A stretch of 64,000 nt of DNA from Ostreococcus lucimarinus (Eukaryota), in assembly GCA_000092065.1 (NCBI GenBank), contig CP000588.1; one strand, written 5' to 3'. Positions within the stretch are counted from its first letter, which is position 1. Each line of letters begins with the position of its first letter. The notes below the pieces were generated by a model. It was not told the origin of the DNA. It was given only the letters and a program-made list of their open reading frames with translations, and did no database searches. Shown here piece after piece: positions 173 to 45,717 of the stretch. The position numbers and the translations under genes are program-made.

Positions 173-1417
173 TCCACCGACACGAAGCTGTATGACCTGC
201 TCGGCGTGAGCAAGGGGGCGTCGGCGGCGGAGATTAAAAAGGCGTACCGCAAGATGGCTGTGAAGCATCACCCGGATAAAGGCGGCGACGAACAAAAGTT
301 CAAAGAGATCTCCGCCGCGTACGAAGTGCTGAGCGACGACGAAAAACGACAGCTGTACGATGAATACGGTGAGGACGCGCTGAAGGACGGAGGCATGGGC
401 GGAGGAGGCGGATCGCCGTTTGATATCTTTGAGGCGATGTTCGGAGGGAATCCGTTCGGGCCGGGGGGCGGCGGCGGACGAGGAGGAGGGAGATCTCGCG
501 TGCGAAAGGGAGAGGACGTCGTGCATGGGTTGAAACTTGGATTGGATGATTTGTACAACGGGGTGACGAAGAAGCTGAGCCTGTCGAAGAATGTGATTTG
601 CCAAAAATGCGATGGGAAAGGGAGCAAGTCGGGGGCGAGCGGCACGTGCAACGGATGCAGAGGCGCGGGCGTCAAGGTTGTCGTTCGACAAATCGCGCCG
701 GGGATGGTGCAGCAAATGCAGACCGTCTGTAACGATTGCCGAGGCACGGGTCAGACGATCAGCGAGAAGGATAAGTGCGAGAAGTGCCACGCTCAAAAGG
801 TTGTTCAAGAAAAGAAGGTGCTCGAGGTGCACATCGAAAAGGGCATGAAGCACAACCAAAGAGTGGTCTTCCAAGGCGAAGCTGACGAAGCGCCGGACAC
901 CGTGCCGGGTGACATCATCTTCGTCGTGCAACAAAAGGAGCACCCGGTGTTCACGCGCAAGGGGGACGATTTATTCATGGAAAAAGAAATCTCCCTCGTA
1001 GAGGCGTTGTGCGGGATGAAGATGACCGTCGATCACCTCGACGGCCGTCAACTCGTCATCTCCACCCACGAGGGCGAAGTCATCAAGCCCGGTCAATTCA
1101 AGGCTGTATTCGACGAAGGTATGCCTAAGCACACCATGCCTTTCCAAAAGGGTCGCTTGTTCATCCACTTCACCGTCAAGTTTCCGGCTCCGGGCGACTT
1201 GTCCGAAGACGATCTCAAGGCGCTCGAAAAGATTTTACCCGCGCGACCGCAGCTTAGCATTGACATGGAGAGTGAAAATGTGGAAGAGGTTAACATGCAC
1301 GAGGTTGATATGGAGCAAGAAAAGCGTCGTCGCGAAGCCGAGAGCAGACAACAAAGCCAATACGAGTCCGACGACGAAGGCGGCGGACAACCCGGCGTTC
1401 AATGCGCCCAGCAGTGA
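173..1417 (+). CDS. DnaJ/Hsp40 type I (Ydj1/DNAJA-like) with C-terminal CaaX box (CAQQ). The first coding exon lies upstream of the window and the intron acceptor is at about 170-172.
   Basis: The J-domain (YDLLGV...HPDKGG), a G/F-rich region, a zinc-finger region with four CxxCxGxG repeats and the C-terminal domains are all present. No ATG or stop lies in frame between 1 and 205. A CTGAC branch point sits 30 nt upstream of a CAG at 170-172, so the gene is 5'-partial and spliced. Confidence 0.85.
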
Positions 1418-1549
1418 GTTCACCATTCTTTTCTCTTCGTCGAGGGGTGAATGTCCCTCGAGTTGTAGTCGAGCGTTGAGTGCGAGTACTGGTGCTATGG
1501 CGTTAGAGTGTTCGTTCTATTTTACAATACGAAATCCCGTACCTATGAT

Positions 1550-2932
1550 CTAATCGCGGAAAAAGCTCGCCGCGAGCCCGCCGCCGGCACTCTTCTTCTT
1601 TTTCGTCTTCTTCGCCGGCGACTCGTCGACGCTCTGGTCGCGCTTTTTGTTTTTGTACACCCACGAATTCGCATCCTTCGGCAAACGACGCGAGCACGAC
1701 CACGACGTCGCGTCCGGGTCCCACTTCTCCACGCGTTCGGCTTCCTTCTTCGGCGGCGCGAACGCTTCGCGAATCGCCGCCACGCCCTCGGGCGTGACGG
1801 GCCACTTTTTCTCTCCGGCTTTGTTTTGAAGAAAAAGTACAGACGTCGGCGCCGCGCTCGGCGTGAGTTGATCGATGCGCGAGTGCTGCCCGCCACTCAC
1901 AAAGGCGTGTTCCTTCGCCTCGAGCGTTGTGTTCGAGACGCAGTACACGCTCTTCGCCAGTCGCATCCAGCCGCGGCTGTCGTGCCAAAGTGGAACGACT
2001 ACGAAAAAGGATAGCGGTTTTTTCGCGCGAGACAAAAGCCTCTCGACGTGACCCGCCAAACGCAAGATGATTTCCTCGTCGAACGGGGGATTACACTCGA
2101 AGCTCCCTTCGCTCGGCTCGAAGTCGAACGCGTTTCCGAGCGATCCGAACGCGCGATCCGTCATCGCGCTCGCGCTGCAAAACTCTTTAAAGTGCGCGTT
2201 GAGCGGCGACGCGAAGAGCTCGCATCGCACGTCGAATCTTTTTTCGAGCGTCTCGAACACGCGCGGCGGAATCGCCGCCTGCATGTTCCCCGCCTTATAA
2301 TGCGTCCCCTGCAGCGTCGCGTACCTCGCCACGACGCAAAAAACCGCGCGATGAAACCCATCCTCGTCGCGCCGCGCGTCGCCGCGCCATCGCGTCTTCA
2401 GCGTCTCGTAGTGTCTCAAATTCAATTCCAGCGTCACCTTCCCGCACGTCAGCGCCACCTTCTCCGCCCGTTTCCCGTTTCCACCCACCTCGATCCTTCG
2501 CGCGCGCACGCGATTCTTCCTCCCATCGCTCGCCCTCGCGCTCGCGTTCGCCCTCGCCTTCGCCGCCGCCCGCGCCAACCGCCGCGTCGTCGTCGCCATC
2601 TCCCCCGTCGTCCGTCCCGCCTTCGCCAGCGACCGCGCCAGCCCGCCGTCGCGCGCGTCGCGTCTCTTCGCGCTCGGGATCGCGTCGCCGTCTCGCGTCG
2701 CGTCGCGTCGCGCGCACAACCACCGTTCAAAGTGCGCGTACCACCGCCGTCCCAGCGCGTCCTCGGTCTCCTCGCGAAACGTCCCCGCGAGCGCGCGCAT
2801 CGCGGCGCGCTCGCGCGCGAGCGCGGCGGGCGACGCCGCGACCGCCTCGTCGACGTCGGCGTCGACGGCGCGGTCGCGCGCGAGACCCTGGTCGGCGCGC
2901 ATGCGCGCGAGCACGGCGTCCACGGCATCCAT
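1550..2932 (-). CDS. PCIF1/CAPAM-like cap-specific adenosine N6-methyltransferase.
   Basis: It has the NPPF catalytic motif. The flanking blocks (FECNPPFDEEI, LSFFVVVPLWHD, EHAFVSGGQH, FLQNKAGEKKWPVT) align with the human PCIF1 catalytic and helical domains. Confidence 0.7.
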   Translation of the reverse strand: MDAVDAVLARMRADQGLARDRAVDADVDEAVAASPAALARERAAMRALAGTFREETEDALGRRWYAHFERWLCARRDATRDGDAIPSAKRRDARDGGLARSLAKAGRTTGEMATTTRRLARAAAKARANASARASDGRKNRVRARRIEVGGNGKRAEKVALTCGKVTLELNLRHYETLKTRWRGDARRDEDGFHRAVFCVVARYATLQGTHYKAGNMQAAIPPRVFETLEKRFDVRCELFASPLNAHFKEFCSASAMTDRAFGSLGNAFDFEPSEGSFECNPPFDEEIILRLAGHVERLLSRAKKPLSFFVVVPLWHDSRGWMRLAKSVYCVSNTTLEAKEHAFVSGGQHSRIDQLTPSAAPTSVLFLQNKAGEKKWPVTPEGVAAIREAFAPPKKEAERVEKWDPDATSWSCSRRLPKDANSWVYKNKKRDQSVDESPAKKTKKKKSAGGGLAASFFRD

Positions 2933-3040
2933 CGCGGCGCGCTCTGACGCGACGTCGACGGGGCGCGCGCGCGCGCGGCGCTGGACGCTAGGAAATACAC
3001 AGAATTAATTACAGCGATCGCGACGCGCGCGCGCGGCGCG

Positions 3041-3403
3041 TCAGCGCGGTCGAGTCGTCGCCGACCATCGCTCCCACGCGCGCGTCCCGACGACGCGCGC
3101 GCCGCCAAAGTAAAACGTCGCCGCCCACGCGGCGACGACGGCGAACGCGGCGACGGCGAGCGCGCGAGACTCGCGCGCGCGCTTGGCCACGCGCGCGTCG
3201 CGGCCGGGACCGCGGGCGTCGCGCGCGTGGGGGGCGAAGGTCCACGCGTTCAACACCCAGAGCCAAGGCAACGCGAGGAAACCGAGGTAGAAGAGCCCGT
3301 CGGCGAGCGCGCGCGCGGCGGCGCGACGGAGGACGCGCTCGCCGTCGCAGGTGTCGACGAAGTCGTCGTCGGGAGGGGCGGGCGCGGGCGCGGGGGCGGA
3401 CAT
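3041..3403 (-). CDS. Hypothetical small protein of 120 aa with two predicted TM helices.
   Basis: It starts at an ATG and fits the 5'-to-3' spacing between PCIF1-like and MetAP on the same strand. It has two hydrophobic helices (LFYLGFLALPWLWVL and LAVAAFAVVAAWAATFYF). No family is recognised, and it could be a GC-driven artefact. Confidence 0.3.
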   Translation of the reverse strand: MSAPAPAPAPPDDDFVDTCDGERVLRRAAARALADGLFYLGFLALPWLWVLNAWTFAPHARDARGPGRDARVAKRARESRALAVAAFAVVAAWAATFYFGGARVVGTRAWERWSATTRPR

Positions 3404-4791: not shown

Positions 4792-6831
4792 ATGGCGCGC
4801 GACGACGACGATTCGGACGATGATTTCGAATTCGATGGCGCGGCGGAAGACGGCGACGGCGACGGCGACGGCGCGCGCGCGTGGGACCCGGACGCGCAGC
4901 GCGACGCGGTGGTGATGCTGATCGATTGCTCGCCGGCGATGTTCGAGGCGGACGCGACGCGCGCGGACGGGGCGTGCGCGTTCACGGCGGCGACGCGGGC
5001 GTGCTTTGAATTCGCGCGCGCGCGCGTCGTCGTGGCGCCGGACGACGTGCTGGGCGTGTGCGCGTACAACACCGGGAAGAGCGTGGGTGGGATAGGGATG
5101 GAACGCGTGTGCGAGGTGCGAAGGGCGGAGAACCCGAGCGCGGCGGGAGCGCTGGAATTGAGCGAATACGCGAACGGGGAGAAGGGCGCCGACAAATTTC
5201 GCGAGCGATTCGGCGAGTTGAAACCCGAGGACGACGATGGGACGGGCGATTTTTTCAATCAAGAGGACGCGCTGACGAAGGGGTTATGGACGGCGTCGCA
5301 CATGCTCGAGAACGGACCGAAGCGAGCGGGGCGGAAGAGCGTGTATTTGTTCACGAACGAGGCGGCGCCGTTGAAATCTGGGAGCTCGGGCGCCAAGTTG
5401 ATTCAACGCGCCAAGGAGATGGCGCAGATGGGGCAACGCATCGAAGTTTTGACGCTCACGCGTGACGGAGTGTTTGATTCATCGATATTTTACGACGCCT
5501 TCACCGCCGAGCACTGCGGGGCGATGGAGGGGGAGAAGGCGCTCGTCGTCGTGCGAGACGGCACCGAGTTGCAGCGCGAGTTTTTGAAGCGGGCGCGAAA
5601 ACGCAGGCGATTGAAACAAACCAAGCTGTGGTTGGTGCCGGGGAAAATAGGTATTCCCATCGACGTCTACGCGCTGGTGAGCGAGGCGAAGAAATCGGCC
5701 AGCATTCTCGTCGACGGGAAGGATTTAGGAGAAATTCGTCGTGAAGTGACGTACAGCGACGCCGTGGGCGCGCCGATCGAAAAACCGACCAAAAGTTTCT
5801 TGGAGATGGATGGCAAGCAGTTGATTTTTTCGAACAAAGAGCTCGGTAAGGTGAAAACGGTGAAAATACCGGGCGTAGAAAACGCAAAGGACACCGTGGG
5901 ATTTCACCTCGTCGGCTTCGTGGACGCCAAGACGATTACGAGAGATTTGTGCCTGAAAAAGTCACACTTCGTCGCCGGTGAAGAGAAAGGGTGCGCCGCG
6001 TTCCAAGGACTGTTGCGCGCGTGCGTGGAGGAGAACAAAGTCGCGATATGCGCGCTTTCGCGCTCGACGCGCTCGGCGCTTCGCTACGTCGCCCTTCTGC
6101 CGCAACTGGCGCCGAGCGCGGATGAAATCGCCGCCGCCGACGACGCCGTCTCTCGCTTGGAACCGCCCGAGGGTTTTCACGTCTTTTACCTACCTTTTCG
6201 AGACGACACGCGGCACCCAGAGCGCGCGGTTGCGTCTGAAAAAGCACCGCTCCCGCGCGCGAATGAAGCGCAAATAACCGCCGCGCGAAGCGTCATCGAC
6301 GCCATTCGTCTCACGCAATGGCATCCCAAGCAAACGCCCAATCCGGCGCTCCAGACGCACTATCGCGTGTTGGAAATGTGCGCGTTAGAGCGCAACGTCA
6401 TGGAACCCGTGCACGACGACACTGAACCCGCGCTGGATGAATGGCAACGCGCCGGCATCCCCGCCCTTCTCGCCGGTTTCGACGCCGAGTGCTTCGGCGC
6501 GTCTCGCGCCATCGACGACTTGCACGGCCGCGCCGCGCCCGCCGTCGACGTCACGGGCGCCACGATCGGCGCGAAGCGCAAAGCCATCGAAGCTCCGAAA
6601 CCTCGTTCGCCGCCCGCGCGGGCGCACAGACCCGAACCCATCATGACCATCGCGCCGCACCACGCGTTCGTCATCGAGCGCGTGAAAGCCGACGCCCTGA
6701 CGTCTCTCACCACCGACGCCCTGAAACGATTCTTAGCCGCGCACAACCTTTCGTGCGCCGGTTCCAAGGCGCAGCTCTGCGATCGAGTCGAATGTCACGT
6801 TCGCATGTGCGCCGGAGACGCACTAGACTAG
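4792..6831 (+). CDS. Ku70 (XRCC6) DNA end-binding protein.
   Basis: It has an N-terminal vWA domain, a Ku core beta-barrel and a C-terminal SAP domain (LTSLTTDALKRFLAAHNLSCAGSKAQLCDRV). The ATG at 4792 lies 148 bp from the divergent MetAP start. Confidence 0.85.
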   Translation: MARDDDDSDDDFEFDGAAEDGDGDGDGARAWDPDAQRDAVVMLIDCSPAMFEADATRADGACAFTAATRACFEFARARVVVAPDDVLGVCAYNTGKSVGGIGMERVCEVRRAENPSAAGALELSEYANGEKGADKFRERFGELKPEDDDGTGDFFNQEDALTKGLWTASHMLENGPKRAGRKSVYLFTNEAAPLKSGSSGAKLIQRAKEMAQMGQRIEVLTLTRDGVFDSSIFYDAFTAEHCGAMEGEKALVVVRDGTELQREFLKRARKRRRLKQTKLWLVPGKIGIPIDVYALVSEAKKSASILVDGKDLGEIRREVTYSDAVGAPIEKPTKSFLEMDGKQLIFSNKELGKVKTVKIPGVENAKDTVGFHLVGFVDAKTITRDLCLKKSHFVAGEEKGCAAFQGLLRACVEENKVAICALSRSTRSALRYVALLPQLAPSADEIAAADDAVSRLEPPEGFHVFYLPFRDDTRHPERAVASEKAPLPRANEAQITAARSVIDAIRLTQWHPKQTPNPALQTHYRVLEMCALERNVMEPVHDDTEPALDEWQRAGIPALLAGFDAECFGASRAIDDLHGRAAPAVDVTGATIGAKRKAIEAPKPRSPPARAHRPEPIMTIAPHHAFVIERVKADALTSLTTDALKRFLAAHNLSCAGSKAQLCDRVECHVRMCAGDALD

Positions 6832-6844
6832 CTCCGGAACCGAC

Positions 6845-6849
6845 TGTAA
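6845..6849 (+). promoter_or_regulatory. TGTAA poly(A) signal 14 nt after the Ku70 stop.
   Basis: TGTAA is the chlorophyte polyadenylation signal. Similar sites follow the nicastrin, helicase, POLE2 and coiled-coil genes. Confidence 0.5.
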
Positions 6850-6881
6850 ACCGACGCGCGCGCCGCACAACGCGAAGCACC

Positions 6882-7862
6882 ATGTCCACGCCCGCGGCGC
6901 CCGAGCCGCCCGCTCCCGAGGCCCCGCCCGAGCCACCGAGCCTTTTGATTCCCGGCCACATTCCGTTTCCGCCCGCGCGCGAGGGCGAGATGGCGGAACC
7001 GACGGTGCAAATCGCGCAGCCGCCGCCGCTGTACCCACCGCTCCCGCGCGGTCTCAAGCCCTTCACCGACGCCACGCCCGAGGAACTGCGCCTCGTGCGC
7101 CTGTCGCGCGCGATTCGAGGGTTCTTCCGCGCGTCGGCGTATCATCACGGCGATCGGGACGACGAGCTCGAGCGCCGCGCGCGCGAGGGCGACGTCTCGC
7201 GATGGCGGGACGAGGAGGCGAGCGGGACGAGCTCGGACGAGGACGATGAAAGGGGCGATAAGGACGACGAGGACGCGATCGATGAACGATGGATACGAAG
7301 CATGCGACGAGCGTTCACGCTGGAGGATTTAAAGGTGACGGATGAGCGGATCGTGCCCAGGGAGATATTAGAGGCGGCGTTCGGCGCGAGGGCGAACGCG
7401 CCGAACGGAAAGGGTAAGAAACGCGCCGCGAACGACGCGAGCGCGAGCGGTGGAGACAAGAAGCGCGGTAAGGCGAACGAAGACGGCGAACGCGACGATC
7501 AAGGGGCGACGGCGTCGACGAAACAGAGAAAGGGTGATATTTCGCGTCTCGAGCGTCTGGCGCGTTTAGAAGAGTCGAGCGCGGCCAAGGAGCTCGACGG
7601 CGACGCCGTCGAGGGCAAGTCGCGCGGTCGTCTCCAATCGCGCGCGAGCGATCGTCAGCGTCGCGCGCGATCGCCGTCCAAAAATGCGCGCGCCGGGGAC
7701 GAGGACGACGACGAAGCCGACGAAGACGCCGTCGACCGCGCCGCGGACGACGACGACGAGCTCGACAGCGACGACGACTACGCCCGCGCCGCCGGTTTCG
7801 ACGACGACGACGGCTACGACGACGACATCGCCGACCACGCCGACACCGAGGCCTTCTATTAG
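6882..7862 (+). CDS. Hypothetical protein with a Pro-rich N-terminus and a D/E-rich C-terminus.
   Basis: The ORF runs from the ATG at 6882. The central segment is non-repetitive (TLEDLKVTDERIVPREILEAAFG). No family is recognised. Confidence 0.45.
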   Translation: MSTPAAPEPPAPEAPPEPPSLLIPGHIPFPPAREGEMAEPTVQIAQPPPLYPPLPRGLKPFTDATPEELRLVRLSRAIRGFFRASAYHHGDRDDELERRAREGDVSRWRDEEASGTSSDEDDERGDKDDEDAIDERWIRSMRRAFTLEDLKVTDERIVPREILEAAFGARANAPNGKGKKRAANDASASGGDKKRGKANEDGERDDQGATASTKQRKGDISRLERLARLEESSAAKELDGDAVEGKSRGRLQSRASDRQRRARSPSKNARAGDEDDDEADEDAVDRAADDDDELDSDDDYARAAGFDDDDGYDDDIADHADTEAFY

Positions 7863-7923
7863 CTCGCTCGTCTCTTTCATGCGTCATTCAAAACCTAAGC
7901 TTCGTCTTCTACGTCGCGTCTCG

Positions 7924-8220
7924 CTACGACCCTCCCATGTTTTGCAGCCTCCCGAGCACGACTTGCCCGCTCTCCAGGTACCGCAGCGCGCAGTTCGTCA
8001 GGCAGCTCGACTCGCTCGACGAAAACTTCGCGCCCGGCGCGTACGTCACGCACTTCTCGAAGCACGTCTCCGTGAGCTTCGCGACGACCTCGTTGAACAC
8101 CGCCTTGCGCTTTTCCTCCTGCGGCGCGATGAAACGTCAGTCGTGCGACGCGCGACGGCGAACGCGGCGAATCGAGCGCACCTCGAGGAACTGTTGCATG
8201 TGCGCGTCGTTGGCCTGCAT
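7924..8220 (-). CDS. Small TIM (Tim9/Tim10 family) mitochondrial intermembrane-space chaperone, 77 aa. It has two exons, 8182..8220 and 7924..8118, and a 63-nt intron at 8119..8181.
   Basis: The spliced product is MQANDAHMQQFLE|EEKRKAVFNEVVAKLTETCFEKCVTYAPGAKFSSSESSCLTNCALRYLESGQVVLGRLQNMGGS. It carries the twin CX3C motif with 15-residue spacing. The intron has a GTGCGC donor, a CTGAC branch and a CAG acceptor, and it contains the in-frame TGA. The ORF track misses this gene. Confidence 0.65.
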
Positions 8221-8380
8221 CGCGACGCGGCCTCGACGGATCGAGGATCGCGCGCGCGGGTGTGACGACGAGACGCGAATTCGAGCCGAGTCGCGAGCGC
8301 GAGCGCGGCGAGACGACGCGAAGGACGCGACGCGCGCGCGGCGATCGGTCGACGGCGACGCGCCGCGCCGTCAACTCGCA

Positions 8381-8460
8381 TTTCAATTCCAACTCGCATT
8401 TCAATTTACGTTTCAATTCGCGTTTCAATTCGCGTTTCAATTCGCGCGTTCGACGGACGC
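8381..8460. repeat. Compound AT-rich minisatellite made of an 18-bp unit repeated twice and a 12-bp unit (gtttcaattcgc) repeated three times.
   Basis: Tandem units are visible by eye. The repeat lies in the convergent 3' region of the methyltransferase gene and upstream of the Tim9 promoter. It generates spurious repeat-peptide ORFs such as RELKRELK and NSRFNSRF. Confidence 0.7.
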
Positions 8461-9126
8461 TCGCGCGCGCGCGCGCCTCGGCACGACGAAGACGCCGAAG
8501 TCGGCGGCGCGATCGCGCCGAACCTCCCACGGCGTCGAATCGTCGGGCTCGGCGAACGCACCGTCGCGCTCGAAGTCCACGCACGCGTCCAGGGCGTCGA
8601 CGCACGTGACGATGCGAAAATCTCCAATCTCCCAGGCGCGCCGCAGCGTCGGCGACAGTCGACGCAGGCCCGCGCCCGTGAGCCACGCGAACGCGCACGT
8701 CGGCGCGGGTGAATCGAGCACGCCGCGCGCCAGCGCCTCGGCGGTCAACGCGGTGAGATCACCTTTGTGCACGGTGATCAAGTCCTCGAGATTCTCGCGC
8801 GCGACGCGTTCGCGCGCGTCTCGCACGAGCGCGTCGTCGAGCTCGAGGCCCACGCAGCGGCAGCCCCTCGCCTTGGCGGCGTCCACGAGCACGCGCCCAT
8901 CGCCGCATCCGAGGTCGTACAGGACGTCGGAGGACGACAGCGCGCACGCGTCGAAGGCGACGGCGCGTCGGCGCGGCTCCGTGGGCGCCCACGGGGCGAG
9001 GGACGTCGCCGCCGCCTCGGCGCACTTTTCGTCGTTTCGAGCGGCGAGCGCGGCGCGCAGCAGCGCGTTCTGCGCGCGCGCGACGTCGGCGGGATCGAAA
9101 TCGTACGCGTCTTCGTCGTCGCGCAT
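8437..9126 (-). CDS. Class I SAM-dependent methyltransferase.
   Basis: Motif I (VLYDLGCGDGRVL) and motif II (CVGLELDDALV) are present on a Rossmann-fold MTase core. The substrate is unknown. Confidence 0.7.
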   Translation of the reverse strand: MRDDEDAYDFDPADVARAQNALLRAALAARNDEKCAEAAATSLAPWAPTEPRRRAVAFDACALSSSDVLYDLGCGDGRVLVDAAKARGCRCVGLELDDALVRDARERVARENLEDLITVHKGDLTALTAEALARGVLDSPAPTCAFAWLTGAGLRRLSPTLRRAWEIGDFRIVTCVDALDACVDFERDGAFAEPDDSTPWEVRRDRAADFGVFVVPRRARARASVERAN

Positions 9127-9209
9127 CGCGCGAGCGCGCGGTCGAGCGCGAGCTCGATCGACCGCGCGCTGTGCGGTCGGGGACGCGCTTCGAGTCGAAT
9201 CGCGTCGCG

Positions 9210-9914
9210 TTACATGACGAGTCGAATCGCGGCCAAAGACAGCGCGCCGAGCGATACCAGCGTCCCCACGCTGTATCGAATAATTTCCGTCTTCGCCGCC
9301 TCTATCTGCGTTCGCATCTGATGCAACTCTCGATCGACGCGCGCCTCGACCTCTTTCATCTGACTCTCCTGAATCCCGTGCAACTCTCGCAGTCGTCCCT
9401 TCTCCAGATTCAAGTCCAACTTTTGCGACTGCGTGATCCTATCGATGTTATACTTGAGATCGGCGCGCAGCTTCTCGTTCTCCGCCTGCAGGGTTTCGGT
9501 GGAGTGTTTCATCGACGCGCTCGCCTCGCGCAGCGACGACGCCACCTCCTGCTTGAGCGCCTGCGTCTCCGCGCGTCCGTGCATCAACTCTCGCTCCAGT
9601 TCGTTTCTCGCGACGAATCCCGCGCGCGTCATGGACGTCAGCGCGCTCGCGACGATGGCCTCCGCCTGCGGTTCGCCGAACCCGCCCGCTTTCGCGAGCT
9701 GCTTGATGATGGCGTGCGAGTCGAACCGGTCGACCGTCGCCGCGGGCGGGTCCCACGCCGTCGCCGGCGACGCCGCGGACGCGCGCGCGCGTCGCGCGAC
9801 GCCGCGCGCGTCGAAACGATCGACCGTCGCGAGTCGCGGGTCGAGCGCGCGCGCGCGTCGCGCGACGCGCGTCGCGACGCCGCGCGCGAACATCGATTTG
9901 AACGATGAATTCAA
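9210..9914 (-). CDS. DUF1640 / CCDC90B-MCUR1-like mitochondrial coiled-coil membrane protein.
   Basis: It has a conserved N-terminal block (FDSHAIIKQLAKAGGFGEPQAEAIV), a long coiled coil and a C-terminal TM helix. The presequence contains an internal duplication (ATVDRFDARG / ATVDRFDSH). Confidence 0.55.
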   Translation of the reverse strand: MNSSFKSMFARGVATRVARRARALDPRLATVDRFDARGVARRARASAASPATAWDPPAATVDRFDSHAIIKQLAKAGGFGEPQAEAIVASALTSMTRAGFVARNELERELMHGRAETQALKQEVASSLREASASMKHSTETLQAENEKLRADLKYNIDRITQSQKLDLNLEKGRLRELHGIQESQMKEVEARVDRELHQMRTQIEAAKTEIIRYSVGTLVSLGALSLAAIRLVM

Positions 9915-13654: not shown

Positions 13655-14272
13655 ATGCGTCCATCGTTCGCGACGCCGCGCGCCGCGACGCCGCGCGCCG
13701 CGACGCCGCGCGCGGCGCGAGCGACGCGCGCGACGCCTCGGCGCGCCGCGACGCCGACCCGCGCGACGCGCGACGACCGCGCGAGGGATCTGTTCGCCAA
13801 TTTGTACCGGGGCGGCGGTGGGAAACAAATCTACTACGGCGTGTTTCAGCGCGACGCGCCGGCGAGCGCGACGAAGAGCGAGGAAGCGCGCGCGCGATCG
13901 CGCGATGAAGCCGCGAAGACGCTGACGAACATCGACGCGGAGGAACGCGGACGACGGATGGAGGTGGGGAAGGCGGCGGGCGCGGCGACGGCGGCGCTCG
14001 CGGCGGCGCAGCTGGCGCTGGGGGCGACGCGCGTCGAACGGTTGGCGATCGCGGTGCCGCTGTTCTTCGCGCTCGGGTTCGTGGGAAGCGCGAAGACGGG
14101 GTTGTGAAACATCGCGCAAGCCGGCGTTTGGGACGTCGATGGCACTGGTTTGCAAGATATCGAGGACGAGTCGGTGGCGACGGCGATTCGTAAAAAGGTT
14201 AACGATTTTAACGGTAAAAGCGCGGCGGCGGTGGCGGTGATCACCGCGATGTACGTCGCGCTGCCGGTGTAG
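13655..14272 (+). CDS. Small two-TM membrane protein. The conventional ORF is 13655..14107 and ends at TGA. The frame then continues for 54 more codons to a TAG at 14270..14272, so this is a candidate selenoprotein with UGA decoded as Sec.
   Basis: The start at 13655 is an ATG, 60 bp from the divergent Dus start. The predicted product has a transit-peptide-like N-terminus, a TM helix (LAIAVPLFFALGFVGS), the TGA, and then NIAQAGVWDVDGTGLQDIEDESVATAIRKKVNDFNGKSAAAVAVITAMYVALPV, which includes a second hydrophobic helix. A SECIS-like hairpin and a TGTAA signal follow, as described in the next feature. Confidence 0.45.
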
Positions 14273-44148: not shown

Positions 44149-45225
44149 TCACGAGAACGAAGTGAACAACGTTCCGTCATCCGGACCGCCAAACTCGCTC
44201 GAATTCATCAACACGTAGTCGAGAGCATCCATATCGTCGCCGTTACCGGTGCTCATCGATCGATCAGACAACGTACTTGGGTACGTGCCTTCGTCGTAGT
44301 TTACCTGCGTCGCCGCTCGCAACGCGTTCGAGTCCACCACACACTCGAGCTGATTGAGATTTTTTGTGAAACTGTCCGTGTAGTTGAGTCGCAATCCAAG
44401 CGGGAGTTCCCGCATGTCAGGCATGCTCAACGCGCGATTCATAGTATTGCCGTGGAAGAACTGTAACTCGTCTGGTGACGTGCCCAGCATTTGGTCGAAA
44501 GCGCGTTGGTACGCGACCGCGGTCGCTCCCGTCTGCTTCTTCGCGGCCGCGGCGGGCGCGCGCTTGAGCTTTGCGCTCTTCGTTTTCAACTTTGACGCCG
44601 CGTTCATCGACGTTTCGCGCACCTTACGCGTCTCTGTCTCGGCTAGTAGCATCGCTTGACGTGCGTTCATCGCATCCAGACTCATCGGTGGCGTCGGCGA
44701 ACGCAACTGCGCCTCACCGTACGCCACGGCGTCGAGCACGTTCATGCCGCGGCAAAACGGCTTCGTAAAGTTGTGCACATTCGTCGCGCTCGACGATCGC
44801 TTCAGCGTCTCTAAAACCTCGGGGTCGTCCTTCTCCTTGATCATCTTCCGAACCGTATGCTGCCACAAATTGGCCGTATTCTGCTTCACGAGCGGATATC
44901 GAATCACGTCCACCACCCCCATCGAAATCGCCTGGACGATAAACTCCCGCTCCGCCGCGTCGCTATCATCCGTCTGCAACACAACGATCGCCACCTTCTT
45001 CGCCACGATCGGAAACATCCGCGCGCACCTCGAGTGCGGATTTTCCAGGCACGATCGCAGCATCTTCGCCTCCACCAGCATCACGTCTCGTCTCGGCGCC
45101 GGCTCTCGCGTCAGCGACTGCGCCGCCTCCTCCATCCCTCGCATCGTCGTCACCCTATACGACGCCCCCTCGAGCATCTTCACCGCCGCTTCCAGATGCG
45201 CGCCCGCTTCGCTCACCACCACCAC
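44149..45225 (-). CDS. Pseudo-response-regulator-like protein with a receiver-like domain that carries Glu at the phospho-acceptor position and has no CCT motif.
   Basis: The receiver-fold pattern is present (MVVVSEAG..., DVMLVEAKM in place of llDxxMP, IVVLQTDDSD, GVVDVIRYPL). The C-terminal half is unrelated to the CCT domain. Confidence 0.45.
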   Translation of the reverse strand: MVVVSEAGAHLEAAVKMLEGASYRVTTMRGMEEAAQSLTREPAPRRDVMLVEAKMLRSCLENPHSRCARMFPIVAKKVAIVVLQTDDSDAAEREFIVQAISMGVVDVIRYPLVKQNTANLWQHTVRKMIKEKDDPEVLETLKRSSSATNVHNFTKPFCRGMNVLDAVAYGEAQLRSPTPPMSLDAMNARQAMLLAETETRKVRETSMNAASKLKTKSAKLKRAPAAAAKKQTGATAVAYQRAFDQMLGTSPDELQFFHGNTMNRALSMPDMRELPLGLRLNYTDSFTKNLNQLECVVDSNALRAATQVNYDEGTYPSTLSDRSMSTGNGDDMDALDYVLMNSSEFGGPDDGTLFTSFS

Positions 45226-45717
45226 CTGTTCGTTCGTTCGCGCGTCGTTCGCGCGTCGTCAGTCATCGCGGCTCGCGTTCGAATCGTTTCGATTCGATTA
45301 ATCTTTCGGATAGCGTCCGCGTCGTCGCGCGTCTCGCCTCGCGCGCGCGCGGCGTCGCACCTCGAGCCCGCTCGGGAACCCCGGGCGCGTGTGTCGAAGG
45401 TAATCCATCGCCGACGCCGAGTTTCCCCGGTTTCGAGCGCTCGCGGACGGCATCGCGCGCGTCGCGTCGCGCCGCGTCGCGCTCTCGCGCGCGTCGCGCC
45501 GCGCGCGCGCGCCGTCGCGGTTTTTTATCGTCTCCATCGCCGCATTCAGGGCGCTCGGTGCCCCATCGAGGACGATGCAAACATCGGACATACGGGTATG
45601 CGTTATGTGTGAGACGGAATCTTCGATCGAGACGTGCCGACAGACGTGCCGACAGACGGTTGCGGCGTTCGGCGACGCGTTCGGCGTCGACGCGACGCGG
45701 TCGACGCGGCGTCGCGC

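What the first reader, a model, noticed from the sequence alone, without database searches (positions are those of the whole stretch)
7924..8220. Hidden two-exon small-TIM (Tim9/10) gene with an in-frame TGA that is intronic.
The region looks like a 570-bp gene-free gap, but the minus strand encodes a 77-aa twin-CX3C protein once a 63-nt intron is removed. The intron has a GTGCGC donor, a CTGAC branch and a CAG acceptor. The ORF track shows only low-complexity overlapping ORFs here. This shows that short intron-split genes are being missed in this genome. It also shows that an in-frame stop can mark an intron rather than recoding, which contrasts with the finding at 13655.
Basis: seen in the sequence. 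Interest (0 to 1): 0.5.

Follow-up and report, generated by a model that had tools for sequence, protein, structure and literature searches.

The report
Two-exon Tim8 gene, already annotated
The "gap" holds a real two-exon gene for Tim8, a small chaperone of the mitochondrial intermembrane space in the green alga Ostreococcus lucimarinus, but the same gene model has been in that genome's public annotation for years, so it is ordinary.

Summary
On the minus strand there are three parts:
- Exon 1 is 8220..8182.
- The intron is 8181..8119 (63 nt). It has a GTGCGC donor, a GACTGACG branch site, a CGCAG acceptor and an in-frame TGA at 8139..8137.
- Exon 2 is 8118..7924.

Together they encode a 77-aa twin-CX3C protein that matches PF02953 over the whole profile (E = 1.7e-21).

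Four results support splicing:
- The junction FLE|EEKRKA is invariant in 15 Mamiellales homologues.
- Intron position and phase are shared by five Ostreococcus lineages and Micromonas pusilla, while the intron length ranges from 63 to 158 nt.
- dN/dS is 0.05-0.18.
- Two public read-assembly contigs are 99.7-99.9% identical to the window and lack exactly these 63 nt.

The window is Ostreococcus lucimarinus CCE9901. The exact 77-aa protein is already on record as XP_001419426.1 / ABO97719.1, "inner membrane translocase (import) Tim8".

So the gene is hidden only from a naive ORF list, not from the genome's annotation. It is the Tim8 orthologue, not Tim9 or Tim10. The intron signals match the published consensus for this species. 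This is a correct reading of a known, ordinary gene, and its interest is low.

The parts
8182..8220 (-). Exon 1 of the Tim8 CDS: ATG plus 12 codons (MQANDAHMQQFLE).
   Evidence: Sequence. There is no upstream in-frame ATG before a stop. The residues QQFLE align with all homologues. Exon 1 adds Pfam profile positions 1-10 and 8 bits over exon 2 alone.
8119..8181 (-). Spliceosomal intron, 63 nt, phase 0. Donor GTGCGCT, branch site GACTGACG at 8142..8135 (15 nt between ACTGAC and the terminal AG), acceptor CGCAG. The in-frame TGA is at 8139..8137.
   Evidence: These 63 nt are exactly absent from contigs L011 and L012. Orthologous introns sit at the same position and phase in O. tauri, three metagenomic Ostreococcus lineages and M. 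pusilla. The signals match the published O. lucimarinus consensus GTGCGTG / GACTGACG / CGCAG (PMC2483917).
7924..8118 (-). Exon 2 of the Tim8 CDS: 64 codons plus TAG (7926..7924). It holds the twin CX3C motif (C32, C36, C52, C56).
   Evidence: It is 87-95% identical to Ostreococcus homologues. dN/dS is 0.05-0.18.
8221..8406 (-). Probable 5' untranslated region. Its minimum extent is set by how far the intron-less contigs reach; the true transcription start is not determined.
   Evidence: L011 aligns to window 8406..8181 and L012 aligns up to 8422-8447. This is inference only, because the contig ends coincide with a tandem repeat that could break an assembly.

Best explanation
Window 7924..8220 (minus strand) is the nuclear gene for Tim8 of Ostreococcus lucimarinus CCE9901. 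Its pre-mRNA carries one 63-nt phase-0 spliceosomal intron after codon 13. Removing the intron joins ...QQFLE to EEKRKAVFNEVV... and gives a 77-aa protein.

By homology with yeast and human Tim8, the following steps are inferred:
- The protein has no cleavable presequence and crosses the outer membrane through TOM.
- It is trapped in the intermembrane space when the Mia40/Erv1 relay oxidises its twin CX3C motif into two disulfides that staple a helix-loop-helix hairpin.
- It assembles with Tim13 into a hexameric chaperone.
- That chaperone shields hydrophobic precursors such as Tim23 on their way to inner- and outer-membrane insertases.

Shown here are the gene structure, the splice junction, family membership, Tim8 as the closest paralogue, purifying selection and a predicted hairpin fold. 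Location, disulfides, partner and substrates are inferred. The in-frame TGA is simply part of the branch-site motif (gacTGAcg), which happens to fall in frame 0.
For: - Pfam PF02953 matches at E = 1.7e-21 and 75.9 bits (cut-off 22.3) over profile positions 1-64 of 64. The exon-2 ORF alone covers only positions 11-64.
- The exact 77-aa sequence is XP_001419426.1 'inner membrane translocase (import) Tim8 [Ostreococcus lucimarinus]'. The adjacent ORF 8437..9126 is XP_001419427.1, the next accession number.
- O. tauri Tim8 is 92% identical. The neighbouring genes keep the same order: CCDC90-like, methyltransferase, Tim8, a convergent gene, Ku.
- FLEEEKRKA.FNEVV is invariant in 15 homologues. These include proteins carrying MMETSP transcriptome identifiers (P0005, P0033, P0035).
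- The intron has the same position and phase in five Ostreococcus lineages and M. pusilla, with lengths of 63, 151, 120, 108, 120 and 158 nt.
- Contigs L011 and L012 are 99.7-99.9% identical to the window and read CTCGAG|GAGGAAAAG with exactly 63 nt missing.
- dN/dS is 0.05-0.18 against four orthologues.
- A family profile against PDB sequences scores Tim8 best, at 42.4 bits against 33.5 or less for the other small Tims.
- The AlphaFold model has helix 3-36, a loop and helix 47-75, with mean pLDDT 74.9. The best Foldseek matches are chains of the yeast Tim8-Tim13 complex 3cjh; one of them, 3cjh_B, is labelled Tim8.
- The splice signals equal the species consensus (PMC2483917).
- A Mia40 homologue of O. 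lucimarinus (XP_001419132) is listed in PMC3097184.
Against: - No experiment on this protein was found. Its location, disulfide pattern and Tim13 partnership are by analogy only.
- I did not check that O. lucimarinus has a Tim13 gene.
- I could not establish whether the two intron-less contigs come from RNA or DNA libraries.
- The Foldseek E-values are weak (1.9e-3 at best) because the fold is a tiny hairpin.
- The margin of Tim8 over Tim10 is modest for a single sequence (34.8 against 31 bits) and only clearer with the profile.
Confidence: 0.95

Rival explanations
1. There is no splicing. Only the 58-aa exon-2 ORF (7924..8100, GTG start) is translated as an N-terminally shorter small Tim, and the ATG at 8220 is fortuitous.
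For: The 58-aa ORF alone already passes the Pfam cut-off (E = 5.6e-19). Gene callers called it on 361 metagenomic or assembly contigs.
Against: - Exon 1 residues (A/Q)MQQFLE are conserved across Mamiellales, and the Bathycoccus gene is contiguous with them.
- The spliced product gains profile positions 1-10.
- Two contigs carry the exact junction.
- A eukaryotic nuclear gene would not normally start at GTG (established knowledge).
Confidence: 0.02
2. The TGA at 8139..8137 is recoded (selenocysteine or read-through), and the unspliced 98-codon frame is translated.
For: The intron length is a multiple of 3, so the frame continues across it. Ostreococcus species are known to encode selenoproteins (own knowledge, not tested here).
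Against: - The intron-encoded residues are not conserved in sequence or length among orthologues. The O. tauri intron (151 nt) and the M. pusilla intron (158 nt) are not multiples of 3.
- Pfam homology skips the segment.
- The intron-less contigs exist.
- The segment has complete species-typical splice signals.
Confidence: 0.01
3. The protein is Tim9 or Tim10, or Tim13, rather than Tim8.
For: All four paralogues share PF02953 and the same fold. Single-sequence scores are close: yeast Tim8 34.8 bits, Tim10 31, Tim9 28.7, Tim13 28. The structural TM-scores are in fact highest for Tim9/Tim10 chains (0.78-0.79), because the crystallised Tim8 chain is shorter.
Against: - The family profile prefers Tim8 by 9 bits.
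- Every source that classifies a homologue names it Tim8.
- The N-terminal motif FLE.E..K matches yeast Tim8. Its crystallised chain aligns from position 14 of the query. The full-length yeast and human sequences are from my own recollection.
Confidence: 0.04

Closest known systems
XP_001419426.1 / ABO97719.1 / UniRef100_A4S1U3, Tim8 of Ostreococcus lucimarinus CCE9901
   Same: Identical over all 77 residues, so the exon-intron model is the same. The neighbouring gene is also identical to the next accession.
   Different: Nothing; it is the same gene.
Tim8 of Ostreococcus tauri (P0001, assembly GCA_000214015.2, contig CAID01000008.2)
   Same: 92% identity, the same gene order on both sides, and the same phase-0 intron position after ...FLE, with a CTGAC branch site and a CAG acceptor.
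   Different: The O. tauri intron is 151 nt, has a GTACGC donor, is not a multiple of 3 and has no in-frame stop among its 50 complete codons. The protein is 76 aa.
Yeast Tim8 in the Tim8-Tim13 complex (PDB 3cjh) and human TIMM8A/DDP1
   Same: Twin CX3C motif, helix-loop-helix hairpin and about 33% identity. It is the best sequence and Foldseek match.
   Different: The algal protein is shorter at both ends. Its function, partner and substrates are untested in Ostreococcus. The human and yeast comparison beyond the PDB chains rests on my own knowledge.
Canonical non-chromosome-2 introns of O. lucimarinus (Irimia and Roy 2008, PMC2483917)
   Same: The donor starts GTGCG (consensus GTGCGTG). The extended branch motif GACTGACG is exact (found in 66.5% of confirmed introns). 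The acceptor CGCAG is exact.
   Different: At 63 nt it is well below the median of 111 nt reported for all predicted introns. The branch-to-AG spacing of 15 nt is just under the reported broad peak of 20-35 nt. Donor positions 6-7 are CT instead of TG.

Membership tests
Small Tim family (Pfam PF02953, Tim10/DDP zinc finger) | Sequence match above the curated Pfam threshold | tested here: met
   75.9 bits against a cut-off of 22.3, E = 1.7e-21, profile positions 1-64 of 64.
Small Tim family (Pfam PF02953, Tim10/DDP zinc finger) | Twin CX3C motif, with two CX3C separated by about 11-16 residues | tested here: met
   C32-FEK-C36 and C52-LTN-C56, with 15 residues between them. Three of the four Cys are invariant and the fourth is nearly invariant in 15 homologues.
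Small Tim family (Pfam PF02953, Tim10/DDP zinc finger) | Small size (about 70-100 aa) and a helix-loop-helix hairpin | tested here: met
   77 aa. The AlphaFold model has helix 3-36 and helix 47-75 with mean pLDDT 74.9. The top 16 Foldseek matches in the PDB are all small Tim chains, with TM-scores of 0.57-0.79.
Small Tim family (Pfam PF02953, Tim10/DDP zinc finger) | Location in the intermembrane space and Mia40/Erv1-dependent oxidative import | not testable with these tools
   The only supporting fact is that a Mia40 homologue of O. lucimarinus is listed in PMC3097184.
Tim8 orthologue group (as against Tim9, Tim10 and Tim13) | Closer to Tim8 than to the other three paralogues | tested here: met
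   The profile against PDB sequences gives Tim8 42.4 bits, Tim10 33.5, Tim13 31.0 and Tim9 27.4. Source names of homologues are Tim8 wherever a name classifies them. No full phylogeny was made.
Tim8 orthologue group (as against Tim9, Tim10 and Tim13) | A Tim13 partner encoded in the same genome, and hetero-hexamer formation | not tested
   I did not search for O. lucimarinus Tim13. Assembly cannot be tested with these tools.
U2-type spliceosomal intron of O. lucimarinus (non-chromosome-2 class) | GT...AG ends with the species consensus: GTGCG donor, ACTGAC branch site and CGCAG acceptor | tested here: met
   GTGCGCT ... GACTGACG ... CGCAG, against the consensus in PMC2483917.
U2-type spliceosomal intron of O. 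lucimarinus (non-chromosome-2 class) | Removed from the transcript at exactly these bases | tested here: met
   L011 (run SRR28369057) and L012 (run DRR699210) lack exactly 8181..8119. The library type was not verified. An intron-less DNA allele made by reverse transcription would imply the same junction.

The most novel reading that the evidence does not exclude
The two intron-less contigs might not be transcripts. They could be a natural genomic allele of O. lucimarinus that has lost this intron precisely, which would be an intron presence/absence polymorphism segregating in wild populations. Both contigs run for 2.4-3.2 kb into the neighbouring genes, and those genes have no introns that could serve as a control. 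I therefore cannot exclude DNA origin.
Probability: 0.07. Interest if true: 0.3.

Novelty: already known. Interest (0 to 1): 0.08.

Why it matters
It matters little for biology. Tim8 is a well-understood mitochondrial chaperone, and this exact gene model has been public since the O. lucimarinus genome was annotated.

The practical lesson concerns method. In compact, GC-rich picoeukaryote genomes, a six-frame ORF list or a prokaryotic gene caller truncates short 5'-intron genes or fuses them across the intron. An in-frame stop flanked by species-typical splice signals should be read as an intron before recoding is invoked. Metagenomic protein catalogues do contain such mis-called versions of this gene.

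Tried and rejected
- **Splice-signal statistics.** The composite pattern and GACTGACG are no more frequent in the window than in shuffles. I therefore did not use the signals as evidence by themselves.
- **A control for the contig source.** To show that SRR28369057 and DRR699210 are RNA libraries, I built a second intron-containing gene model in the window (45453..44149 minus strand, 135-nt intron) and looked up its spliced product. That exact sequence is not in the collection, so the control failed.
- **Run accessions in the literature.** A search for the two run accessions found nothing.
- **Direct look-up of the 77-aa sequence.** It worked through the id returned by the cluster look-up.
- **Intron alignments.** Global alignment of the 63-nt intron to the longer orthologous introns is uninformative, because gaps let nearly every base match. 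I discarded it and report only lengths and terminal signals.
- **Overlapping ORFs as real genes.** The long ORFs on the plus strand and in other frames (7684..8265, 7937..9217, 7895..8698) have no Pfam match. I rejected them as high-GC artefacts.
- **Tim13 search.** I ran no further search on finding Tim13, because it would not change the verdict.

Full report
**Observation**

Reading the minus strand of 7600..8600 and assembling the proposed model reproduces the finding exactly.
- Exon 1 is 8220..8182: ATG plus 12 codons, MQANDAHMQQFLE.
- The intron is 8181..8119 and is 63 nt long: GTGCGCTCGATTCGCCGCGTTCGCCGTCGCGCGTCGCACGACTGACGTTTCATCGCGCCGCAG.
- Exon 2 is 8118..7924 and ends in TAG.

The spliced product is MQANDAHMQQFLEEEKRKAVFNEVVAKLTETCFEKCVTYAPGAKFSSSESSCLTNCALRYLESGQVVLGRLQNMGGS. 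It is 77 aa, with Cys at 32, 36, 52 and 56.

The unspliced frame stops at a TGA at 8139..8137. This is the intron's only in-frame stop, and it lies inside the branch-site motif gacTGAcg.

The mechanical ORF list shows only a 27-aa piece and a 58-aa piece of the gene. It also shows long ORFs in other frames and on the other strand, and these have no Pfam match.

**Is it more than chance?**

The splice signals alone are not.
- The pattern GTGCG-N-ACTGAC-N-CAG occurs once in the window, and 34 of 100 shuffles also have at least one match.
- GACTGACG occurs 5 times against 4.3 expected.

The case rests on the evidence below.

**Family**

- The 77-aa product matches Pfam PF02953 (Tim10/DDP) at E = 1.7e-21 and 75.9 bits, against a cut-off of 22.3.
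- The match covers profile positions 1-64 of 64 and runs straight across the junction.
- The exon-2 ORF alone covers only positions 11-64 and scores 8 bits less.

**Identity of the gene and the organism**

- An exact-sequence look-up finds the 77-aa protein as XP_001419426.1 / ABO97719.1 / UniRef100_A4S1U3. Its name is 'MPT family transporter: inner membrane translocase (import) Tim8 [Ostreococcus lucimarinus]', and it sits on a 701,771-nt record.
- The neighbouring ORF 8437..9126 (minus strand) is the next accession, XP_001419427.1.
- The window is therefore O. lucimarinus CCE9901, and this exact two-exon model is already in the public annotation.
- The O. tauri orthologue (P0001) is 92% identical and is also named Tim8. 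It lies in the same gene order: CCDC90-like, methyltransferase, Tim8, a convergent gene, Ku.

**Evidence that the intron is spliced**

1. FLEEEKRKA.FNEVV is invariant across 15 Mamiellales homologues. These include proteins carrying MMETSP transcriptome identifiers: P0005 (Ostreococcus sp. RCC789), P0033 and P0035.
2. In genomic DNA, an intron sits at exactly this phase-0 position in other lineages.
   - O. tauri has 151 nt.
   - Three metagenomic Ostreococcus lineages have 120, 108 and 120 nt.
   - Micromonas pusilla CCMP1545 has 158 nt.
   - Only the terminal signals are shared.
   - Bathycoccus has no intron.
   - M. commoda has its intron 10 codons further downstream.
3. The exons are under purifying selection, with dN/dS of 0.05-0.18 against four orthologues.
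4. Two contigs assembled from public sequencing runs are 99.7-99.9% identical to window 4967..8447. They are L011 from SRR28369057 and L012 from DRR699210. They lack exactly the 63 nt and read CTCGAG|GAGGAAAAG.

I could not verify that these runs are RNA. A control gene look-up failed, and no paper mentions the runs. However, a precise intron-less DNA allele would itself be a product of the spliced mRNA, so the junction is validated either way.

**Splice signals against the literature**

Irimia and Roy (PMC2483917) report the following for EST-confirmed O. lucimarinus introns outside chromosome 2:
- the donor consensus is GTGCGTG;
- ACTGAC is present in 87% of introns, and the extended GACTGACG in 66.5%;
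- CGCAG is the preferred acceptor;
- the branch-to-AG spacing has a broad peak at 20-35 nt.

This intron has GTGCGCT, an exact GACTGACG, an exact CGCAG and a spacing of 15 nt. It is a textbook intron for this species, only short: 63 nt, against a median of 111 nt reported for all predicted introns.

**Which small Tim?**

- As a single sequence against PDB chains, yeast Tim8 is best at 34.8 bits. Tim10 scores 31, Tim9 28.7 and Tim13 28.
- With a profile of 15 homologues the gap widens. Tim8 scores 42.4 bits, Tim10 33.5, Tim13 31.0 and Tim9 27.4.
- The AlphaFold model is a helix-loop-helix hairpin (helix 3-36 and helix 47-75, mean pLDDT 74.9).
- Its best Foldseek matches are chains of the yeast Tim8-Tim13 complex 3cjh, followed by Tim9/Tim10 chains. 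One of the 3cjh matches, 3cjh_B, is labelled Tim8.

This is Tim8.

**Mechanism**

The gene structure, junction, family and fold are shown above. The rest is inferred from established knowledge of small Tims, summarised in PMC3097184.
- The protein is imported without a presequence.
- It is oxidised on the twin CX3C motif by Mia40/Erv1. A Mia40 homologue of O. lucimarinus is listed in that paper.
- It assembles with Tim13 into a hexamer in the intermembrane space.
- The hexamer chaperones hydrophobic precursors to the membrane insertases.

I did not test for the presence of Tim13.

**Rivals**

- Translation of the 58-aa ORF alone, TGA recoding and a pseudogene are each contradicted by the conservation of exon 1, the variable and non-conserved introns, the intron-less contigs and the low dN/dS.
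- Assignment to another paralogue remains a small possibility until a phylogeny is made.

**Verdict**

The gene is already annotated, belongs to a well-known family and has species-typical splice signals. The claim that such genes are being missed in this genome is not supported. What misses them is naive ORF calling. The metagenomic catalogues show this, because they hold a truncated 58-aa version on 361 contigs and 113-116-aa intron read-through versions in sister lineages.

Noticed in passing
window 8372..8446: An AT-richer tandem repeat lies between the methyltransferase gene and Tim8: a 12-nt unit AAACGCGAATTG in 4.8 copies, plus an 18-nt unit in 1.9 copies. Its first units include the TGA stop (8439..8437) of the upstream gene 8437..9126. 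Contig L012 appears to carry a different copy number from the window, which would make the repeat polymorphic. O. tauri has no such repeat at this place.
   Followed up: partly
window 45226..45360 (minus strand), within a gene model 45453..44149: A second candidate intron with the same species-typical signals: GTGCGAC ... GACTGACG ... AACAG, 135 nt, phase 0 after codon 31. Splicing gives a 389-aa product whose exon 2 begins VVVVSEAGAHLEAAVKMLEG, which resembles a receiver domain. That exact product is not in the protein collection, so the public model of this gene may differ.
   Followed up: partly
loci L002-L007 (gene at 3001..3348, 1728..2075, 3001..3342, 3001..3342, 2073..2423, 1128..1478) and proteins P0002, P0004, P0008, P0044: Metagenome gene callers have deposited wrong versions of this gene. 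One is the exon-2-only 58-aa ORF, seen on 361 contigs. The others are 113-116-aa proteins in sister Ostreococcus lineages that translate straight through stop-free introns whose lengths are multiples of 3. Some of them are named TIM8 by JGI.
   Followed up: yes
L008 1501..1740; L009 1501..1857; L010 1501..1889: The intron position varies within Mamiellales. Bathycoccus Tim8 has no intron. M. pusilla CCMP1545 has a 158-nt intron at the Ostreococcus position. M. commoda has a 117-nt phase-0 intron 10 codons downstream, after ...MFNE.
   Followed up: yes
window 6441..7862 (+): The convergent neighbour ends 61 nt from the Tim8 stop. The 473-aa ORF is longer than the 326-aa gene called on the matching contigs, which corresponds to window 6882..7862. 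It has no Pfam match and ends in a strongly acidic tail. Its orthologues in O. tauri and the metagenomic lineages (307-353 aa) also have no Pfam hit.
   Followed up: no
The ORF list shows a 150-aa ATG ORF starting there, ending ...GSAKTGL, with no obvious family. I did not examine it further.
   Followed up: no
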